Below, piece by piece: positions 8,972 through 55,431 of a DNA stretch of 64,000 nucleotides. Every line of letters begins with the position of its first letter. Position 1 is the first letter of the stretch. The stretch is from an uncultured virus (IMG/VR IMGVR_UViG_3300005440_000007) (Duplodnaviria > Heunggongvirae > Uroviricota > Caudoviricetes): the IMG/VR virus record IMGVR_UViG_3300005440_000007; one strand, given 5' to 3'. The position numbers were made by a program, and so were the translations under genes. A model generated the notes under the pieces. That model was not told the DNA's origin. It saw only the letters and a program-made list of their open reading frames with translations, and searched no databases.

Positions 8972-9709
8972 TCAAGCCGCCTTTTCAAGGACGTTTCCGT
9001 CCTGATCATACACGAAATAAAACCCATCAAGGCCCGGACGCGAGAAGCCGCCGTTTCTGACGGCGTACCTCACCGCGTCTCCGCTACTGTCAAAGGGGCC
9101 CGCCAGCTTGGAAAGGCCCCCGGTCGAAGGTCCAGTATACTCGACCCAGAGCGTATTTTCATTCCCTCTCTTGGATGATCCCATCGAATCGACGCGGAAG
9201 GGTTCCGCGGGGACTTCTTTTGCGCGCGTAATGAGCGGCCTCCCCAGCACGATCGCGAGCGAGATGATATAGGCTGGGAGGCCGAGCCACGAAAGACCGA
9301 ACAGCGTCTCGCCGATCGCCGCTCCAGCCGAGATGAACATCGCCGTCTTTGCCGAGGTGAGACGCGCGTCCCTGGACCCCGAAACGCACTCTTCGATATC
9401 GGTGACCGCAAAAAGGACGTCCGCGCTGACGGAAATGTAATTGGCGTTGGTGGCGAGCTGCTGCTCTATGCTGGCCACGCCTGCGCTGACTTTGTCGACG
9501 ACGGGCTTCCATCGGTCCGGAGGGCAGTAGGCGTAGAACTCCAGCGGGAATCCCTTGGCGAACTCGATGATGGAGCTGACGATGCGAACGATCATCTGCC
9601 CTTCCTGCCGGGAGATGAACATCATCCGAGACGCCGACGACGAAGATGAAGATGTGCCCGGCACGGGCCGGGTTGCGGTCTGCCCAAGAAACATCGGCAT
9701 CGTGCCCAT
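8972..9709 (-). CDS. LGQ-leader membrane protein
   Basis: MFLGQ; TM hairpin. Confidence 0.75.
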   Translation of the reverse strand: MGTMPMFLGQTATRPVPGTSSSSSSASRMMFISRQEGQMIVRIVSSIIEFAKGFPLEFYAYCPPDRWKPVVDKVSAGVASIEQQLATNANYISVSADVLFAVTDIEECVSGSRDARLTSAKTAMFISAGAAIGETLFGLSWLGLPAYIISLAIVLGRPLITRAKEVPAEPFRVDSMGSSKRGNENTLWVEYTGPSTGGLSKLAGPFDSSGDAVRYAVRNGGFSRPGLDGFYFVYDQDGNVLEKAA

Positions 9710-40406: not shown

Positions 40407-40435
40407 TTGACACGCTCGTATACGGCGTATACACT
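40407..40435 (+). promoter_or_regulatory. Sigma70 promoter with CGTATACG operator
   Basis: TTGACA-17-TACACT. Confidence 0.9.
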
Positions 40436-40461
40436 CCTGAAGGTTGAAGTCAGGAGGGGTT

Positions 40462-40884
40462 ATGACGCTCGAACGGGCAGCCAAGGTCTTCAACGGCATC
40501 TACACCATCAAGTCCGCCGCGACCGGCGACCACCGCACCTTCAAGATCCATACCCAGGGCGAAAAGGCTGAGTTCGCCGCCGGCAAGCGCGTCGTCTCGC
40601 TCTTCACCGGGACGGACAACTCCGCCGACGACCACTACACGGGCTTCGCCTTCATCGACGACCGGGGGATCCACGTCTGGGAGAAGAAGCAGGGCGAAGG
40701 TCTCTGGGAGACCTACGCCGACATGATCTGGACGCTCTACCTCGACGGCGCGTTTTCTCGCTGGGCCGAGAAGGGCTACACCATCCTGGGCGAAGGCCGC
40801 TGCGTCCGCTGCAACCGTCTGCTGACGACGCCCGAGTCGATCAAGAGCGGGATCGGACCGATCTGCGCGGAGATGGGGAGGTAG
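40462..40884 (+). CDS. DUF6011-like protein
   Basis: CVRCNRLLTTPESIKSGIGPIC. Confidence 0.8.
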   Translation: MTLERAAKVFNGIYTIKSAATGDHRTFKIHTQGEKAEFAAGKRVVSLFTGTDNSADDHYTGFAFIDDRGIHVWEKKQGEGLWETYADMIWTLYLDGAFSRWAEKGYTILGEGRCVRCNRLLTTPESIKSGIGPICAEMGR

Positions 40885-40886
40885 CG

Positions 40887-41804
40887 ATGCCTGTCAAAGC
40901 TCACAAGGAAGAAAACCCCGCGGTCCAGGAGATTGCCAACCTTCTGGCCGCACGATTCAACGCTGTCGAACCCAAGATCCACGGCGAGCTTCAGGCGGCC
41001 TATCGCGACTACGCGAAGAGGAACCACAAGGCGATCCTCGAGGCCTCCAAGAACCGCGAGAACAAGGGCTACATCAGCGGGTCGCGCGGAGATCGCTGGA
41101 TGGGGTGGTACCAGAACACGAAGTTCCAGCGCGAGAAGGCCATGAAGGAATGGCGCGCCAAATGGCCTGGCGATTCGATCCCGGACCGCGCCTACAAGGA
41201 GATGCCTCCGAACGACGTCAGCACCTGGGAGGAACTCCGGGCTTGGTCGAGCTTCATGAAGCTCGACTACGAACACGCCGACGAACAAGCGAGGTCCGCT
41301 TTTGAAGACGCCCGAGACGCCTTCATCCGCAAGAACGTCGACAAGGTCAGGAACGTCCTGGAGGCCAGGAAAGAGATCGTGAAGGCGGTGGTCCAGTTCG
41401 GATTCCGGAGCAGGGTCTTCACCGGCAGTATCGAGATCCAGCTCCCCGACGGAAGCTTTGAGGCGGAGCTTGGCCTCAAGTACGTGATCCGGACGATCCC
41501 GCATGTCACGCCCTACTTCCAATACCCGCTCAACTTCACGACGGCGACGGTGGGCGGGAAGACCAAAGCGCGGCCGAGCGAGGAGGAGCTGCGGATCCTG
41601 CTGGGCGGGAAGCCGCCGCTTTCCCGCGAGCAGGAGCTCCTCGCCAAGGGATTCTGCCTTCAGAGCGGGAAAGAAATCCCCTACTCTCCGGAGACGGCCT
41701 GGATCACGAACCGGATGAGCCCGTACATGGAGTGCCCCCTCTGCAGGCAGACGGTGAGTGTTCGGAACCACAAGTGGCGCGCCCACATGGGCAGGGGGAA
41801 ATAA
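40887..41804 (+). CDS. Hypothetical protein
   Basis: GGAGG RBS. Confidence 0.75.
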   Translation: MPVKAHKEENPAVQEIANLLAARFNAVEPKIHGELQAAYRDYAKRNHKAILEASKNRENKGYISGSRGDRWMGWYQNTKFQREKAMKEWRAKWPGDSIPDRAYKEMPPNDVSTWEELRAWSSFMKLDYEHADEQARSAFEDARDAFIRKNVDKVRNVLEARKEIVKAVVQFGFRSRVFTGSIEIQLPDGSFEAELGLKYVIRTIPHVTPYFQYPLNFTTATVGGKTKARPSEEELRILLGGKPPLSREQELLAKGFCLQSGKEIPYSPETAWITNRMSPYMECPLCRQTVSVRNHKWRAHMGRGK

Positions 41805-41806
41805 AG

Positions 41807-42025
41807 ATGCCCTACAAGCGCGCTAACGGCAGGGTCCAGGGGCGAGCTTCGAACGGACGCTTCCGGAAGTTCACCGGCGAAGAGTTCGGAGTGGGCGTCT
41901 GCCCGAAGTGCCAGAATCTGACGACCAGGCCCGAGCTGCCCGGCACTGGCTTCATCGACCCTCGGGATTTCAACGCCCGCGTCTGCCCCAATCCAGGCTG
42001 TGGATGGGACTCGAGAAAATCATGA
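41807..42025 (+). CDS. Small Zn-ribbon protein
   Basis: CPKC..CPNPGC. Confidence 0.65.
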   Translation: MPYKRANGRVQGRASNGRFRKFTGEEFGVGVCPKCQNLTTRPELPGTGFIDPRDFNARVCPNPGCGWDSRKS

Positions 42026-42180
42026 AACGGACTGTGAAGAAACGAAGGTGGAAGAAGACCAGGTGCTCGACGTGCCGCTGCGTCGTAGGACCGTCGAAGT
42101 CGTGCCTCTTCTGCCATCTTCGTGTTTGCACCAAACCGGCCTGTCGAGACCAGCACCGAAATTGCGGGAACCGCTCATGA
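42022..42180 (+). CDS. Small basic Cys-rich protein
   Basis: ATGA overlaps at both ends. Confidence 0.6.
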   Translation: MKRTVKKRRWKKTRCSTCRCVVGPSKSCLFCHLRVCTKPACRDQHRNCGNRS

Positions 42181-42488
42181 AAAGTCGAGCCGTCGTAGGC
42201 CAGATGGTCCAGCGGATTCCAGACCTCGGGAACGAGCTCTGCTTTTCCTGAGTAGAAGGCTCGTTCGGGCAGGTTGCCCGAAGGGACGAGGCGCGCCTTG
42301 AAGAGCGGGGAGATCTCAAGCCCTGGTACTACATCGCGCTCTGGTGCAAGTGCATGATCACGTCGCCCGACGAAACGAATCTCTTCGGAGAGGTCAATTG
42401 GCGCGAGGACGAGATGATATTCCTGACCGACGAGCAGGCGCTTGCGCTCATGGAATCCCACGTCTGCAGAAAGCCGGGGCAGCCATGA
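42177..42488 (+). CDS. Candidate selenoprotein (CxxU, in-frame TGA at 42249-42251)
   Basis: Frame open on both sides of TGA; ATGA-coupled to both neighbours; SECIS-like hairpin. Confidence 0.6.
42260..42290 (+). promoter_or_regulatory. Bacterial SECIS-like hairpin
   Basis: TTCGGGCA-GGT-TGCCCGAA, loop at +21 from UGA. Confidence 0.6.
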
Positions 42489-42952
42489 AGACGATCGTCC
42501 TGGTCGGGTGCGGGAAGGAGAAGCTCTCCCGTGCCGCCAAAGCAAAGGACATGTACCTGGGTCCGCTCTTCAAGAAGGCGCGGGCTTACGCGGAGAAGAT
42601 CGGCGACAGCTGGTGGATCCTATCTGCGAAGTACGGTCTCCTCGATCCCGAGGAGAAGATCGAGCCCTACGATGAGATGCTCACGAAGAAGCCGAAGAAC
42701 GAACGCCACTGGTGGAATCTCAACGTGCGGAACTCGATCTCCTGCAATCTGCTCAAATGGATCGAAGTTAGCGGTCCCAACGTGCGATGCGAACCGGCGA
42801 AGTTCGTCTGCCTTGCCGGCGAGCCGTATCTCGAGTTTTTCGAGATCGCCCCGGAGATCCGGAAGTGCTGCATCATTGAAAAACCGATGGCCGGAATGGG
42901 AATCGGCCAGCGGCTCCAGTTCCTGTCCCGGCCCGTAAATCGTCGAGCCTGA
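42485..42952 (+). CDS. DUF6884 (YaaA-like) protein
   Basis: LVGCGKEK..A.DMY.G.LF..ILSAKYGL. Confidence 0.8.
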   Translation: MKTIVLVGCGKEKLSRAAKAKDMYLGPLFKKARAYAEKIGDSWWILSAKYGLLDPEEKIEPYDEMLTKKPKNERHWWNLNVRNSISCNLLKWIEVSGPNVRCEPAKFVCLAGEPYLEFFEIAPEIRKCCIIEKPMAGMGIGQRLQFLSRPVNRRA

Positions 42953-42966
42953 TCTCTTTTTTTGGC

Positions 42967-42995
42967 TTGACACGTCCGTATACGGCGTATACACT
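42967..42995 (+). promoter_or_regulatory. Sigma70 promoter with CGTATACG operator
   Basis: TTGACA-17-TACACT. Confidence 0.9.
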
Positions 42996-47862: not shown

Positions 47863-47865
47863 CGC

Positions 47866-47893
47866 TTGACAGCCCGCGTATACGCGGTATACT
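47866..47893 (+). promoter_or_regulatory. Sigma70 promoter with extended operator CCGCGTATACGCGG
   Basis: TTGACA-16-TATACT. Confidence 0.85.
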
Positions 47894-47900
47894 CACAGCC

Positions 47901-48182
47901 ATGGAATACAGAATCTGCCGTCTCTGCGAGGAGTCCGATGACACCAAGCGCCTCATCCAATACGCGGTTCGCTCCTACGCCCACTGGGGTTGCTTCCTGA
48001 AGCGCAAGTCCCTCGAGGACGGCCTGGCCTGGATCCGGGGACTTCACCCCCATGAGATTCGGCGCGCGCCGGTCCTGATCGTCCAGGAATGGCTGGACGC
48101 CCGCGGCTGGGAAGGGGATCGGTCCATGGAGCTCCTGCTCCAGGCCGTGAAGGATGCCGAGAAGCGGGAGGCGAGGCTGTGA
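47901..48182 (+). CDS. Hypothetical protein, probably leaderless
   Basis: ATG 7 nt after the -10 box. Confidence 0.75.
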   Translation: MEYRICRLCEESDDTKRLIQYAVRSYAHWGCFLKRKSLEDGLAWIRGLHPHEIRRAPVLIVQEWLDARGWEGDRSMELLLQAVKDAEKREARL

Positions 48183-48610
48183 GGCTTCTCGCCTACCACG
48201 CCACCACCACGGACCGAGCGGCCAGGATCCTGACCGAGGGGTTCCGTTTCGACGTAGAACACAAGAGCGACGCGGGGGACTTCGGGGAGGCGATCTATTT
48301 CACGACCTGCATGGCCCGAGCTCGGGCGATCGGGAGGGCGATCCTGGAGGTCCATCTCGAGCTGTCGAATCCCATCGAGCTCTCCCAGTCGGAAGCCTAC
48401 GCCCTGGTGATCGACAAGCTTGGGTTCGATACGATCCACGGCCACGGGGTCGCTGGCGCCAGCATCCTCGAGGCGAAGAAGGCGCGGACACACTTCCTGG
48501 CGCTCGGTCACGACGCTCTTGTTTCAAATCGAGGCCGCCGTGATCTCGAGATTGCCGTCTACGATCTCAAGGCGATCCTGCAGGTGGTGGTCCGGAAGGC
48601 GGCGGTATGA
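48179..48610 (+). CDS. ADP-ribosyltransferase (H-Y-E type)
   Basis: YHAT, FGEAIYFT, GHDAL, EIAVYD. Confidence 0.75.
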   Translation: MRLLAYHATTTDRAARILTEGFRFDVEHKSDAGDFGEAIYFTTCMARARAIGRAILEVHLELSNPIELSQSEAYALVIDKLGFDTIHGHGVAGASILEAKKARTHFLALGHDALVSNRGRRDLEIAVYDLKAILQVVVRKAAV

Positions 48611-51707: not shown

Positions 51708-51736
51708 TTGACGTCACAGCGTATACGGCGTATACT
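51708..51736 (+). promoter_or_regulatory. Sigma70 promoter with CGTATACG operator
   Basis: TTGACG-17-TATACT. Confidence 0.85.
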
Positions 51737-51779
51737 TCTGAGGTACGGAAGGATGGGCCTTCCGATAGGAGGGGTTACG

Positions 51780-54486: not shown

Positions 54487-54640
54487 GGAGCCGAAGGAGT
54501 GCTCGGCCATCAAGCCTCCATGCAGATGTCCGGAGGGGAAAGGCGTCGAGCATATCCACACGCCCGCGGGGCTCATGAACTACCGGGCATCATCGTCACT
54601 GCCTTCCCGAGTCGGCGATACGGGGCGAAGAGTTCGATGA
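54479..54640 (+). CDS. 53-aa hypothetical protein
   Basis: Overlaps both neighbours. Confidence 0.45.
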   Translation: MPKEPKECSAIKPPCRCPEGKGVEHIHTPAGLMNYRASSSLPSRVGDTGRRVR

Positions 54641-55431
54641 TGCAGAATCAGCGTTGGGAAGAAGGCCGAGTCCGCTGGCGTCCGGCCGGAGAAGTGATCC
54701 GGACCTCCGATTACGAGGTCGGCGAGATCTCTCGCGCCGCGGCCGAGGGATTCGTGGCCCGGCATCACTACGCCAAGACCTCGCCGGCGGGACGCTTCTG
54801 GTACGGCCTTCACCGGCACGGACAGCTCGTCGGCGTCTCGATCTTCTCGCAGCCCTGCAACAACCGGACGATCACGAAGGTCTTCCCGTTCGACTTCCGG
54901 GAAGGGGTCGACTTGGGACGGCTCGTTCTCCTGGACGAGGTTCCGGGGAACGGGGAAAGCTGGTTCGTCAGCCAGTGCTTCTCCGGACTCCGCAAGAAAG
55001 ACATCCTGGGTGCGGTCGCGTTCTCGGATCCGGTGCGCCGCGTCGCCGCCGACGGACGCGTGATCCTGCCGGGTCACAAGGGGACCGTCTACCAGGCCCT
55101 CTCGGCGGTATACCTGGGCCGCGCGGACGGTCGCACGCTCCGGATCTTTCATGACGATGGAACGAGCTTCAACCATCGGACGGAGCAGAAGATCTCGGGC
55201 CTCGAGCAGGGGTACGACGGCGCGGTCGCGCAGCTGGTCGTTCATGGCGCCGAGAGGCCTGCCCGTGGCGAGGATCTTGATGCTTGGAGGCGGATCTGGA
55301 TCGGGCGTCTCACCTACCCGCTGAAGCATCGCGGGAATCACAAGTATGCCTTCTCGCTCAATCGCAAGATCCGGAAGCATCTTCCGGACTCGCTTCCCTA
55401 TCCGAAGACGATCGACGGAGAAGCTGCGTGA
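54637..55431 (+). CDS. mom: Mom-like adenine-modifying GNAT enzyme
   Basis: RHHY, LGRLVL.D.VPGNGESWF, FSDP, GH.GTVYQA. Confidence 0.8.
   Translation: MMQNQRWEEGRVRWRPAGEVIRTSDYEVGEISRAAAEGFVARHHYAKTSPAGRFWYGLHRHGQLVGVSIFSQPCNNRTITKVFPFDFREGVDLGRLVLLDEVPGNGESWFVSQCFSGLRKKDILGAVAFSDPVRRVAADGRVILPGHKGTVYQALSAVYLGRADGRTLRIFHDDGTSFNHRTEQKISGLEQGYDGAVAQLVVHGAERPARGEDLDAWRRIWIGRLTYPLKHRGNHKYAFSLNRKIRKHLPDSLPYPKTIDGEAA

What the first reader, a model, noticed from the sequence alone, without database searches (positions are those of the whole stretch)
42177..42488. Candidate viral selenoprotein 1 (CxxU with SECIS-like hairpin)
Seen: MKSRAVVGQMVQRIPDLGNELCFS-TGA-VEGSFGQ... stays open for 78 more codons. 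Read through, the 103-aa ORF is ATGA-coupled to both neighbours and fills an otherwise empty gap. The TGA sits in C-F-S-U. A perfect 8-bp stem TTCGGGCA-GGT-TGCCCGAA starts 13 nt downstream. Known: CxxU is a classic Sec motif, and a bacterial SECIS is a hairpin just 3' of UGA with G in the apical loop (E. coli fdhF has GCAGGUCUGC). Inference: the virus uses host SelABC machinery; no sel genes are in the window.
Basis: partly seen in the sequence, partly recalled or inferred. Interest (0 to 1): 0.82.

Follow-up and report, generated by a model that had tools for sequence, protein, structure and literature searches.

The report
Conserved read-through stop in phage gene
A small phage gene carries a real, conserved internal TGA stop that ribosomes must somehow cross, but relatives have tryptophan at that spot, so it looks like a leaky stop and not a selenocysteine codon.

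Summary
ATG 42177, in-frame TGA 42249-42251 after C-F-S, 78 more open codons, ATGA overlaps at both ends and a perfect 8-bp hairpin (42264-42282) are all there. The TGA is not an error. It is kept in 4 diverged metagenome relatives and in contigs of 4 other sequencing runs.

Both halves are under strong purifying selection in this frame (dN/dS 0.03-0.16 upstream, about 0.05 downstream). This includes codons 26-59 in lineages where codon 26 is GTA and no start codon exists, so translation must cross the UGA.

The selenocysteine reading is not supported:
- The only 2 homologs that span the site have Trp there (GFSW, AFSW) and lack the Cys of "CxxU".
- No Cys homolog was found.
- No selenoprotein family, Rfam SECIS family, tRNA or sel gene was found.
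- The fold model is a small beta-barrel with C-F-S-W in a strand, with no solved thioredoxin-fold match.
- The hairpin shows no compensatory changes.

My best reading (about 0.5) is a TGG-to-TGA change kept as a leaky stop and decoded at low level, most simply as Trp. Rivals are two coupled cistrons (about 0.22) and Sec (about 0.1). One point stays unexplained: the hairpin needs unlikely codon choices (P about 0.001-0.014).

The parts
42177..42488 (+). Whole 103-codon reading frame with one internal TGA, plus its terminal TGA
   Evidence: It is conserved in L001-L004.
42177..42248 (+). N-terminal 24 codons (MKSRAVVGQMVQRIPDLGNELCFS). They hold the motif V.RI[PV]D, shared with the Trp-type homologs P0006 and P0020.
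   Evidence: dN/dS is 0.03-0.16 in 6 pairs, with Fisher p from 3e-5 to 0.058. Selection in this frame starts at the ATG. Alignment.
42249..42251 (+). In-frame TGA, at the column where homologs have Trp
   Evidence: Invariant in 5 of 5 DNA sequences and in contigs of 4 runs. W in P0006 and P0020.
42252..42254 (+). Codon 26: GTA here and in L001 and L002 (not a start codon), GTG in L003 and L004. The distant homologs P0005 and P0007 begin with M at this column.
   Evidence: GTA makes up 3.7% of Val codons in this window's genes.
42252..42485 (+). Core domain of 78 codons: [MV][ED]GSFGQVAR..WY.V.L.C.CM..GEVNW..EM..L[ST]DEEAL.LM.H.C. Predicted to be a small beta-barrel.
   Evidence: dN/dS is about 0.05. 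Homologs. Model and Foldseek.
42264..42282 (+). Hairpin: 8-bp stem TTCGGGCA/TGCCCGAA with loop GGT, inside the codons for F-G-Q-V-A-R-R
   Evidence: 39 of 40 cells paired, 6 of 8 pairs invariant, 0 compensatory changes. The codon choices are unlikely: P(stem >=7 bp)=0.014 and P(>=8 bp)=0.001.
42022..42180 (+). Upstream 52-codon Cys-rich ORF, ATGA-coupled to the candidate
   Evidence: 13 synonymous / 2 non-synonymous changes against L004 in its own frame. No Pfam or PHROG hit.
42485..42952 (+). Downstream DUF6884 gene, ATGA-coupled to the candidate
   Evidence: Pfam PF21818 E 3.2e-36 and phrog_5935 E 4e-22.
40407..40435 (+). Promoter/operator-like repeat (TTGACA ... GTATACGGCGTATAC ... ACT) that opens the six-gene operon 40444-42952
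   Evidence: 0 matches expected in shuffles. Exact copies of the 15-mer at 40418, 42978 and 51721.
42967..42995 (+). Next copy of the same promoter/operator-like repeat, which closes the operon

Best explanation
The gene is one functional reading frame of a phage-like element. An ancestral Trp codon (TGG) became TGA, and the stop has since been kept.

Shown:
- The TGA is real and shared by all known members of this clade.
- The 24 codons before it and the 78 after it are both under strong purifying selection in the same frame.
- In the window, L001 and L002 there is no canonical start codon between the TGA and codon 60, yet codons 26-59 are conserved as protein.

Inferred:
- Ribosomes that started at ATG 42177 read through the UGA at some frequency.
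- The simplest decoder is near-cognate tRNA-Trp, the classical leak of UGA. That would restore the ancestral residue and give the 103-aa protein.
- Most ribosomes terminate, so the stop would act as a built-in attenuator of this protein and of the ATGA-coupled DUF6884 gene behind it.
- In lineages with GTG at codon 26, terminating ribosomes may also restart there and make the 78-aa core alone, a form that exists as a stand-alone protein in distant relatives.
- The downstream hairpin may modulate the event, but its role is not shown.
For: (1) TGA is kept in 5 of 5 DNA sequences, with synonymous changes in the codons on both sides (TTT/TTC, TCC/TCG before; GTA/GTG, GAA/GAG after). Contigs of 4 further runs show no other letter there.

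(2) Selection. Upstream 24 codons: dN/dS 0.03-0.16. Codons 26-98: about 0.05, p<=9e-8. Third positions vary at 57 of 98 codons, against 9 and 8 of 98 for first and second positions.

(3) Codons 26-59, window against L002 (both GTA, first in-frame ATG/GTG/TTG at codon 60): 13 of 23.5 synonymous sites changed against 5 of 78.5 non-synonymous, p=6e-7.

(4) Selection in this frame begins exactly at ATG 42177.

(5) The 2 of 2 homologs that span the column carry Trp, in gap-free alignment with the flanking RI[PV]D and FS motifs. TGG to TGA is a single transition.

(6) TGA is otherwise a normal stop here. It ends 47 of 77 ORFs in a rough gene map. Long genes with full-length PHROG matches contain none, so this is not a global code change.

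(7) The AlphaFold model built with W places residues 22-26 (CFSWV) in a strand paired with residues 29-36. Mean pLDDT for residues 21-30 is 85, so the junction lies inside the fold.

(8) Literature, passages read:
- Conserved in-frame stops with dN/dS<1 are widespread in bacteria and most frequent in the mobilome category. TGA is leaky and decoded as Trp at low frequency (PMC7918605).
- UGA has the highest read-through propensity, and tRNA-Trp is among the natural near-cognate readers (PMC7026636).
Against: - No product was observed, and the inserted residue is inferred only from homologs.
- Only 2 homologs span the column, and their DNA could not be fetched, so TGG there is assumed from W.
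- The base after the stop is G (UGA-G), not the C that the review cites as the leakiest context.
- A protein under dN/dS of about 0.05 that depends on a low-level leak is unusual.
- The hairpin is not explained by this model. Its codon choices are unlikely given the peptide (P 0.014 / 0.001), and its 12-nt spacing resembles a SelB-type element (recalled) more than a structure abutting the ribosome.
- Two distant homologs and at least 4 close ones start exactly at codon 26, which fits a two-cistron arrangement equally well for the GTG lineages.
Confidence: 0.5

Rival explanations
1. Two coupled cistrons. The TGA ends a functional 24-aa micropeptide. The 78-aa core is made separately by termination-reinitiation at the adjacent codon 26 (TGA-GTG), as in the ATGA junctions of the same operon.
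For: - Codon 26 is GTG in L003 and L004.
- Gene callers start P0013, P0015, P0016, P0019, P0003 and P0014 there.
- The distant homologs P0005 and P0007 begin with M at exactly this column, so the core can stand alone.
- The operon uses overlapping stop/start junctions throughout.
- Residues 1-17 are of low confidence in the model.
Against: - In the window, L001 and L002 codon 26 is GTA, and no ATG/GTG/TTG follows before codon 60. Yet codons 26-59 are strongly conserved between the window and L002 (p=6e-7).
- GUA mismatches the initiator anticodon at two positions (established knowledge), so restarting there should be very poor.
- There is no Shine-Dalgarno sequence before codon 26 (read).
- In P0006 and P0020 the two parts are a single polypeptide.
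Confidence: 0.22
2. Selenoprotein. UGA is decoded as Sec by host SelB and tRNA-Sec bound to the hairpin acting as a SECIS, giving a C-F-S-U motif.
For: - The in-frame UGA is conserved.
- A stable hairpin lies after a 12-nt spacer, with G-G-U in the loop. L002 reads GCAGGUC. Both resemble the apical part of the E. coli fdhF element, a comparison recalled from memory and not tested.
- The hairpin needs unlikely codons (GGG 0.24, GTT 0.12, CGA 0.086, AGG 0.13 of their families; P(stem>=8)=0.001). They persist in 4 distinct lineages at dS of about 0.5-1.5.
- Only 3 of 903 + strand TGAs have such a hairpin downstream.
- The Cys at -3 is present only in the TGA clade.
Against: - Homologs have Trp, not Cys, at the column (2 of 2), and Gly/Ala at -3.
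- No Cys form was found. [quoted passage not shown]
- No NCBIfam, Pfam or PHROG family matched.
- No Rfam family matched at gathering score, and only 2 irrelevant hits locally at E<=10.
- No tRNA was found in the window, and no SelA/SelB/SelD domain among the 81 ORFs scanned.
- The hairpin has 0 compensatory pairs, and its apical pair is broken in L002. The RNAalifold covariation term is +0.31. Folding z-scores are only -1.2 to -2.1.
- SECIS-like structures rise with GC content, and this window is about 61% GC.
- The model puts the motif in a beta-strand of a small barrel, and no solved fold matched at E<=0.001.
- The host and its sel genes are unknown.
Confidence: 0.1
3. The stop is suppressed by a factor of the element itself, for example a UGA-suppressor tRNA encoded outside this window. 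Read-through would then be efficient and timed.
For: - The 44-aa tail of the protein occurs on 41 contigs, the longest 209,131 bp. Most of the element therefore lies outside the 64-kb window.
- Phages with recoded stops are mentioned in PMC7918605.
Against: - No tRNA in the window.
- TGA is the commonest stop (47 of 77) and closes the overlapping ATGA junctions. A general suppressor would extend most proteins.
- A crude scan listed 27 same-frame TGA junctions, of which 18 have a start codon within 15 codons, as neighbouring genes do. The other rows were not tested.
Confidence: 0.06
4. Nothing functional: a sequencing error, a decaying pseudogene, or a real gene on the opposite strand (ORF 41970-42545, 191 aa).
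For: - The antisense ORF is open in the window, L001 and L002.
- The ORF has no family annotation.
Against: - The TGA is the same in independent assemblies.
- dN/dS is far below 1 on both sides in the + frame.
- The antisense frame carries 1-2 stops in L003 and L004.
- The antisense ORF has no Pfam or PHROG hit.
Confidence: 0.03

Closest known systems
Conserved in-frame stop codons in prokaryotic genes read through at low level (Belinky et al. 2021, PMC7918605; abstract and passages read)
   Same: The internal stop is shared by orthologs, dN/dS stays below 1 after the stop, and TGA is the leaky codon decoded as Trp. The mobilome category is the one with most cases. The paper proposes a role as an expression reducer.
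   Different: - Here selection is also shown on a stretch that has no alternative start codon.
- The stop sits at a column that is Trp in distant homologs.
- An unusually codon-costly hairpin follows the stop.
- The gene lies inside a tightly coupled phage operon.
UGA read-through of the coliphage Q-beta coat cistron giving the A1 protein (recalled; Weiner & Weber 1973 seen only in the reference list of PMC7026636)
   Same: It is a phage gene, and a single UGA is read by near-cognate tRNA-Trp at a few per cent, giving a short and a long product.
   Different: - Q-beta is an RNA phage.
- Its short product is the main functional protein and the extension is C-terminal.
- Here the short product would be only 24 aa, and the conserved domain lies after the stop.
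Bacterial selenoprotein genes with a SECIS hairpin (E. coli fdhF type)
   Same: There is an in-frame UGA, then a hairpin about 11-12 nt downstream with G-G-U in the apical loop. A Cys lies three residues upstream of the TGA.
   Different: - Homologs have Trp and none has Cys.
- No known selenoprotein family or fold matched.
- The hairpin shows no covariation.
- There is no bulged U as in fdhF (recalled).
- No sel genes or tRNA-Sec were seen, and the host is unknown.
Termination-reinitiation at adjacent stop/start codons (ATGA, TGA-GTG junctions of phage operons)
   Same: The stop is directly followed by GTG in L003 and L004. Neighbouring genes of the same operon are joined by ATGA.
   Different: Codon 26 is GTA in the window, L001 and L002, so there is no start codon there. 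The two parts are one polypeptide in P0006 and P0020.
Translational bypassing (phage T4 gene 60)
   Same: A stop follows the last sense codon and a hairpin is nearby. Ser codons lie before the stop and 12 nt after it.
   Different: - The codons in between (V-E-G) are conserved as protein, with synonymous changes.
- Those residues are present in homologs.
- The take-off and landing codons do not match in the window (TCC against TCG).

Membership tests
Bacterial selenoprotein gene (SelB/SECIS-dependent UGA recoding) | In-frame UGA conserved among orthologs, with coding sequence on both sides | tested here: met
   5 of 5 DNA sequences keep TGA. dN/dS is well below 1 on both sides.
Bacterial selenoprotein gene (SelB/SECIS-dependent UGA recoding) | Homologs with Cys (or Sec) at the aligned position | tested here: not met
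   The 2 of 2 homologs spanning the column have Trp. No Cys form appeared. The criterion is cited from PMC12013277.
Bacterial selenoprotein gene (SelB/SECIS-dependent UGA recoding) | SECIS hairpin just 3' of the UGA, supported by conservation or covariation | tested here: inconclusive
   - The hairpin is present, and 39 of 40 cells pair.
- 0 compensatory changes; 1 pair changed to a wobble; the apical pair is broken in L002.
- Folding z-scores are -1.2 to -2.1.
- No Rfam hit.
- The codon choices are unlikely.
- bSECISearch was not available.
Bacterial selenoprotein gene (SelB/SECIS-dependent UGA recoding) | selA, selB, selC and selD present in the host (or the element) | not testable with these tools
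   - No whole genome is held for this window.
- No tRNA was found.
- No Sel domains among the 81 ORFs scanned.
- The host is unknown; the best phage relative shares 34% identity in the primase.
Bacterial selenoprotein gene (SelB/SECIS-dependent UGA recoding) | Membership of a catalogued selenoprotein family, or a redox fold with the motif at the active site | tested here: not met
   - No NCBIfam, Pfam or PHROG hit.
- The model is a small beta-barrel with C-F-S-W in a strand.
- The best Foldseek rows are CAP-Gly, chromo-barrel and OapB, all with E>=0.19.
Leaky-stop / near-cognate UGA read-through gene | The same frame is under purifying selection before and after the stop, and no start codon can explain the downstream part | tested here: met
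   (codons 26-59, window against L002, p=6e-7; codon 26 is GTA). The start of the frame is fixed.
Leaky-stop / near-cognate UGA read-through gene | The residue at the aligned position in homologs is the one a near-cognate tRNA would insert (Trp for UGA) | tested here: met
   W in P0006 and P0020. n=2 only.
Leaky-stop / near-cognate UGA read-through gene | A full-length product is made in vivo | not testable with these tools
   No proteomic or ribosome-profiling data.
Termination-reinitiation coupled cistrons | A canonical start codon overlapping or adjacent to the stop | tested here: not met
   GTA in the window, L001 and L002. GTG only in L003 and L004.
Global TGA reassignment (code 4 or 25 type, or recoded phage) | TGA frequent inside genes and not used as a terminator | tested here: not met
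   TGA ends 47 of 77 ORFs of a rough map. Long genes matching PHROG profiles end to end contain none.

The most novel reading that the evidence does not exclude
A bacteriophage-encoded selenoprotein that arose from a Trp codon. After TGG became TGA, synonymous codon choices in the F-G-Q-V-A-R-R stretch built a SelB-binding hairpin, and a Cys appeared at -3. The host SelABC system would then insert Sec, giving a new C-x-x-U site on a small beta-barrel protein. The unlikely codon usage of the hairpin and the clade-specific Cys are the only observations that point this way.
Probability: 0.1. Interest if true: 0.85.

Novelty: new member of a known kind. Interest (0 to 1): 0.42.

Why it matters
If the leaky-stop reading holds, this is a clean natural case in a DNA phage-like element. 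An internal UGA has been maintained while the protein on both sides stayed under strong selection, and part of that protein has no start codon of its own. That makes programmed or tolerated UGA read-through directly testable with a small reporter, with the hairpin as an obvious variable.

It also gives a useful caution for selenoprotein hunting in GC-rich viral sequence. A CxxU pattern plus a perfect hairpin was not enough here, and the residue in homologs decided the matter.

If the Sec reading were right after all, it would be a selenoprotein in a bacteriophage. My literature searches did not turn one up.

Tried and rejected
- **Relatives in viral contigs:** none.
- **Metagenome scan:** 6 loci. 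I dropped L005 and L006 as chance matches. They match only 23 residues at 53-57% identity, and their flanks are unrelated.
- **DNA of P0005, P0006, P0007, P0020:** these come from ENA or Logan and could not be fetched. The TGG codon, what lies upstream of the M-start forms, and the presence of the hairpin in outgroups therefore remain unchecked.
- **Own genome:** no whole genome is held for the window, so host and sel genes could not be examined.
- **Cultured phage relatives:** nothing closer than 34% identity in the primase, so no host could be inferred.
- **Function of the protein:** nothing from Foldseek against PDB, the PDB sequence profile, NCBIfam or the protein Atlas.
- **Earlier scan notes:**
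  - Nothing for this genome or sequence.
  - The word search returned only unrelated Cys-type selenoproteins from other genomes.
- **Bypassing (T4 gene 60 type):** rejected, because V-E-G after the stop is conserved as protein.
- **Antisense 191-aa ORF:** rejected.
- **Upstream extension of the frame to GTG 42000, as in P0004:** rejected.
- **Other same-frame TGA junctions:** 27 rows listed. I did not test them for conservation.

Full report
**What is there**

- ATG 42177-42179 overlaps the TGA of an upstream 52-codon Cys-rich ORF.
- After 24 codons (…NELCFS) there is a TGA at 42249-42251.
- The frame then runs 78 more codons to TGA 42486-42488, which overlaps the ATG of a DUF6884 gene.
- A perfect 8-bp stem with a GGT loop lies at 42264-42282, 12 nt after the TGA.

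The gene is the fifth of six tightly packed genes (40444-42952). These lie between two copies of a promoter/operator-like repeat, TTGACA…GTATACGGCGTATAC.

The surrounding 30 kb encodes a phage-type replication module:
- a D5-like primase-helicase;
- two DNA helicases;
- a Sak4-like annealing protein;
- an RNase T-type exonuclease;
- an HNH endonuclease;
- a Mom-like protein.

No capsid or terminase gene was recognised, and ORFs in the first 28 kb match almost nothing. The window has no tRNA and no Rfam match. No whole genome is held for it.

**Is the TGA real and conserved?**

The metagenome scan returned six loci. Four are true relatives: L001 is almost identical, and L002-L004 are 87-94% identical in protein. 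I discarded two as 23-residue chance matches after reading them.

All five DNA sequences have TGA at the same codon. The codons around it differ synonymously: TTT/TTC and TCC/TCG before, GTA/GTG and GAA/GAG after. The stretch is held by 22 public soil and rhizosphere runs. Contigs of four of them cover the TGA without any other letter. A sequencing error is therefore excluded.

**Is it coding on both sides?**

- The 24 upstream codons have dN/dS 0.03-0.16. Fisher p runs from 3e-5 to 6e-4 in five pairs and is 0.058 in the closest pair.
- Codons 26-98 have dN/dS of about 0.05, with p<=9e-8.
- Among the four distinct sequences, third positions vary at 57 of 98 codons, against 9 and 8 for first and second positions.
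- Upstream of ATG 42177 the pattern switches to the frame of the Cys-rich ORF: 13 synonymous / 2 non-synonymous there, against 2 / 13 in the candidate's frame. Translation of the candidate therefore starts at that ATG.
- The antisense 191-codon ORF has stops in L003 and L004.

**The key point**

In the window, L001 and L002, codon 26 is GTA and the first in-frame ATG/GTG/TTG is at codon 60. Yet between the window and L002, codons 26-59 show 13 changes at 23.5 synonymous sites against 5 at 78.5 non-synonymous sites (p=6e-7). This stretch is translated without a start codon of its own, so ribosomes must come across the UGA.

**What do homologs have at the column?**

An exhaustive phmmer search of 1.84 billion representatives found 8 proteins. 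A profile search found 12. A search seeded with the two long forms added one fragment. The family is tiny, purely metagenomic and unannotated.

- **Trp forms.** Only two members span the column. P0006 reads …RRIVDPKVFRGFS-W-IEGSFGQV… and P0020 reads …KRIPDPENLRAFS-W-YPETFGLVAR…. Both have Trp, in gap-free register with the conserved RI[PV]D and FS motifs. Both have Gly or Ala where the window has the Cys of "CxxU".
- **Start-at-codon-26 forms.** Two other distant members (P0005, P0007) begin with M exactly at codon 26. So do several close members called from GTG.
- **Cys forms.** None was found.

It also conflicts with the rule that known selenoproteins have Cys homologs (PMC12013277, passage read).

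**The hairpin**

Evidence against a selected RNA structure:
- 39 of 40 cells pair. Six of eight pairs never vary, one changes U-A to U-G, the apical pair is broken in L002, and there is no compensatory change.
- RNAalifold draws a longer structure with the UGA in a lower stem. It has one compensatory pair but a covariation term of +0.31.
- Folding z-scores are -1.2 to -2.1.
- No Rfam family matches, even locally at E<=10.
- Perfect hairpins are about twice as common in this window as in shuffles (24 against 9.7). SECIS-like structures are known to rise with GC content.

Evidence that it is more than a by-product:
- Given the peptide F-G-Q-V-A-R-R and this element's own codon usage, the chance of a stem of 7 or more base pairs is 0.014. 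For 8 or more it is 0.001.
- The rare codons are kept in lineages with dS of about 0.5-1.5.
- Only 3 of 903 + strand TGAs have such a hairpin 5-25 nt downstream.

I cannot explain this, and it is the main reason Sec is not excluded. The test is post hoc, and the four lineages are not independent.

**The protein**

With W at residue 25 and a 16-sequence alignment, AlphaFold gives mean pLDDT 74.
- Residues 1-17 have low confidence.
- Residues 22-26 (CFSWV) form a strand paired with residues 29-36.
- The whole is a small beta-barrel.

Foldseek finds nothing at E<=0.001. The best rows are CAP-Gly, chromo-barrel and OapB-type small barrels, and no thioredoxin fold is among the listed rows. Invariant or near-invariant residues include C-x-C and H-x-C. 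This may be a metal site, which is my inference. The function remains unknown.

**Not a code change**

TGA ends 47 of 77 ORFs in a rough map and closes the ATGA junctions. Long genes that match PHROG profiles end to end contain none.

**Verdict**

The most likely mechanism (about 0.5) is a TGG-to-TGA change maintained as a leaky stop. It would be crossed at low frequency, most simply by near-cognate tRNA-Trp, which restores the ancestral residue. This mechanism is documented for UGA (PMC7918605; PMC7026636).

The effect would be to throttle this protein and the coupled DUF6884 gene. In GTG lineages, reinitiation could add a core-only product.

The alternatives are:
- two coupled cistrons (about 0.22);
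- selenocysteine (about 0.10);
- an element-encoded suppressor outside the window (about 0.06);
- no function (about 0.03).

**Literature**

My searches for phage selenoproteins returned 25 papers with 15 listed and 1 paper. None of those listed describes one. I saw only listings and abstract starts for these papers.

Noticed in passing
window 40407-40435, 42967-42995, 51708-51738, about 47865-47895; L002 about 9378-9410: A repeated promoter/operator-like element: GCTTGACA, a short spacer, then CGTATACGGCGTATAC(ACT). The 15-mer has 3 exact copies and further near copies, against 0 expected in shuffles. In two window copies and in L002 it is followed by AGGAGGGG and an ATG. It seems to mark operon starts and contains two GTATAC palindromes, as a repressor site would.
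   Followed up: partly
L003 1913-2125; proteins P0003, P0013-P0015, P0017: In some relatives the gene runs on without a stop into about 70 extra codons (…EEGFVMNRKYQELIQR…GREGK) before the DUF6884 gene, joined to it by GTGA. P0017 is the same stretch called as a separate 68-aa protein. The window and L002 lack this insert. In L002 the gene is followed directly by the promoter repeat and not by DUF6884.
   Followed up: partly
window 42022-42180 (+): A conserved 52-codon ORF with 9 Cys and a very basic N-terminus (MKRTVKKRRWKKTRCSTCRC…). It shows 13 synonymous / 2 non-synonymous changes against L004 and has no family match. It may be a small zinc-binding protein.
   Followed up: partly
window 1-28000: Of the 33 long ORFs scanned in this half (mostly on the - strand), none has a Pfam hit. 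Of the 15 of them scanned against PHROGs, one has a weak match. If these are structural genes, they belong to an undescribed phage lineage. The best cultured relative of the primase shares 34% identity.
   Followed up: no
protein P0021 (= window 42354-42485): The 44-aa tail of the protein is recorded on 41 contigs, the longest 209,131 bp. The stretch is held by 22 soil and rhizosphere runs. The element is therefore large and widespread in soils.
   Followed up: no
window 48089-48610 (+) and 54499-55431 (+): There is a weak PARP-catalytic-domain match (E 1.2e-4, below the Pfam cut-off), which could be an ADP-ribosyltransferase. There is also a clear Mom-like DNA-modification protein (Pfam E 3.1e-20).
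   Followed up: no
whole window: Perfect 8-bp hairpins with 3-8 nt loops are about twice as frequent as in shuffled sequence (24 against 9.7 +/- 4.2). Many lie inside coding regions, and they share no common motif.
   Followed up: partly
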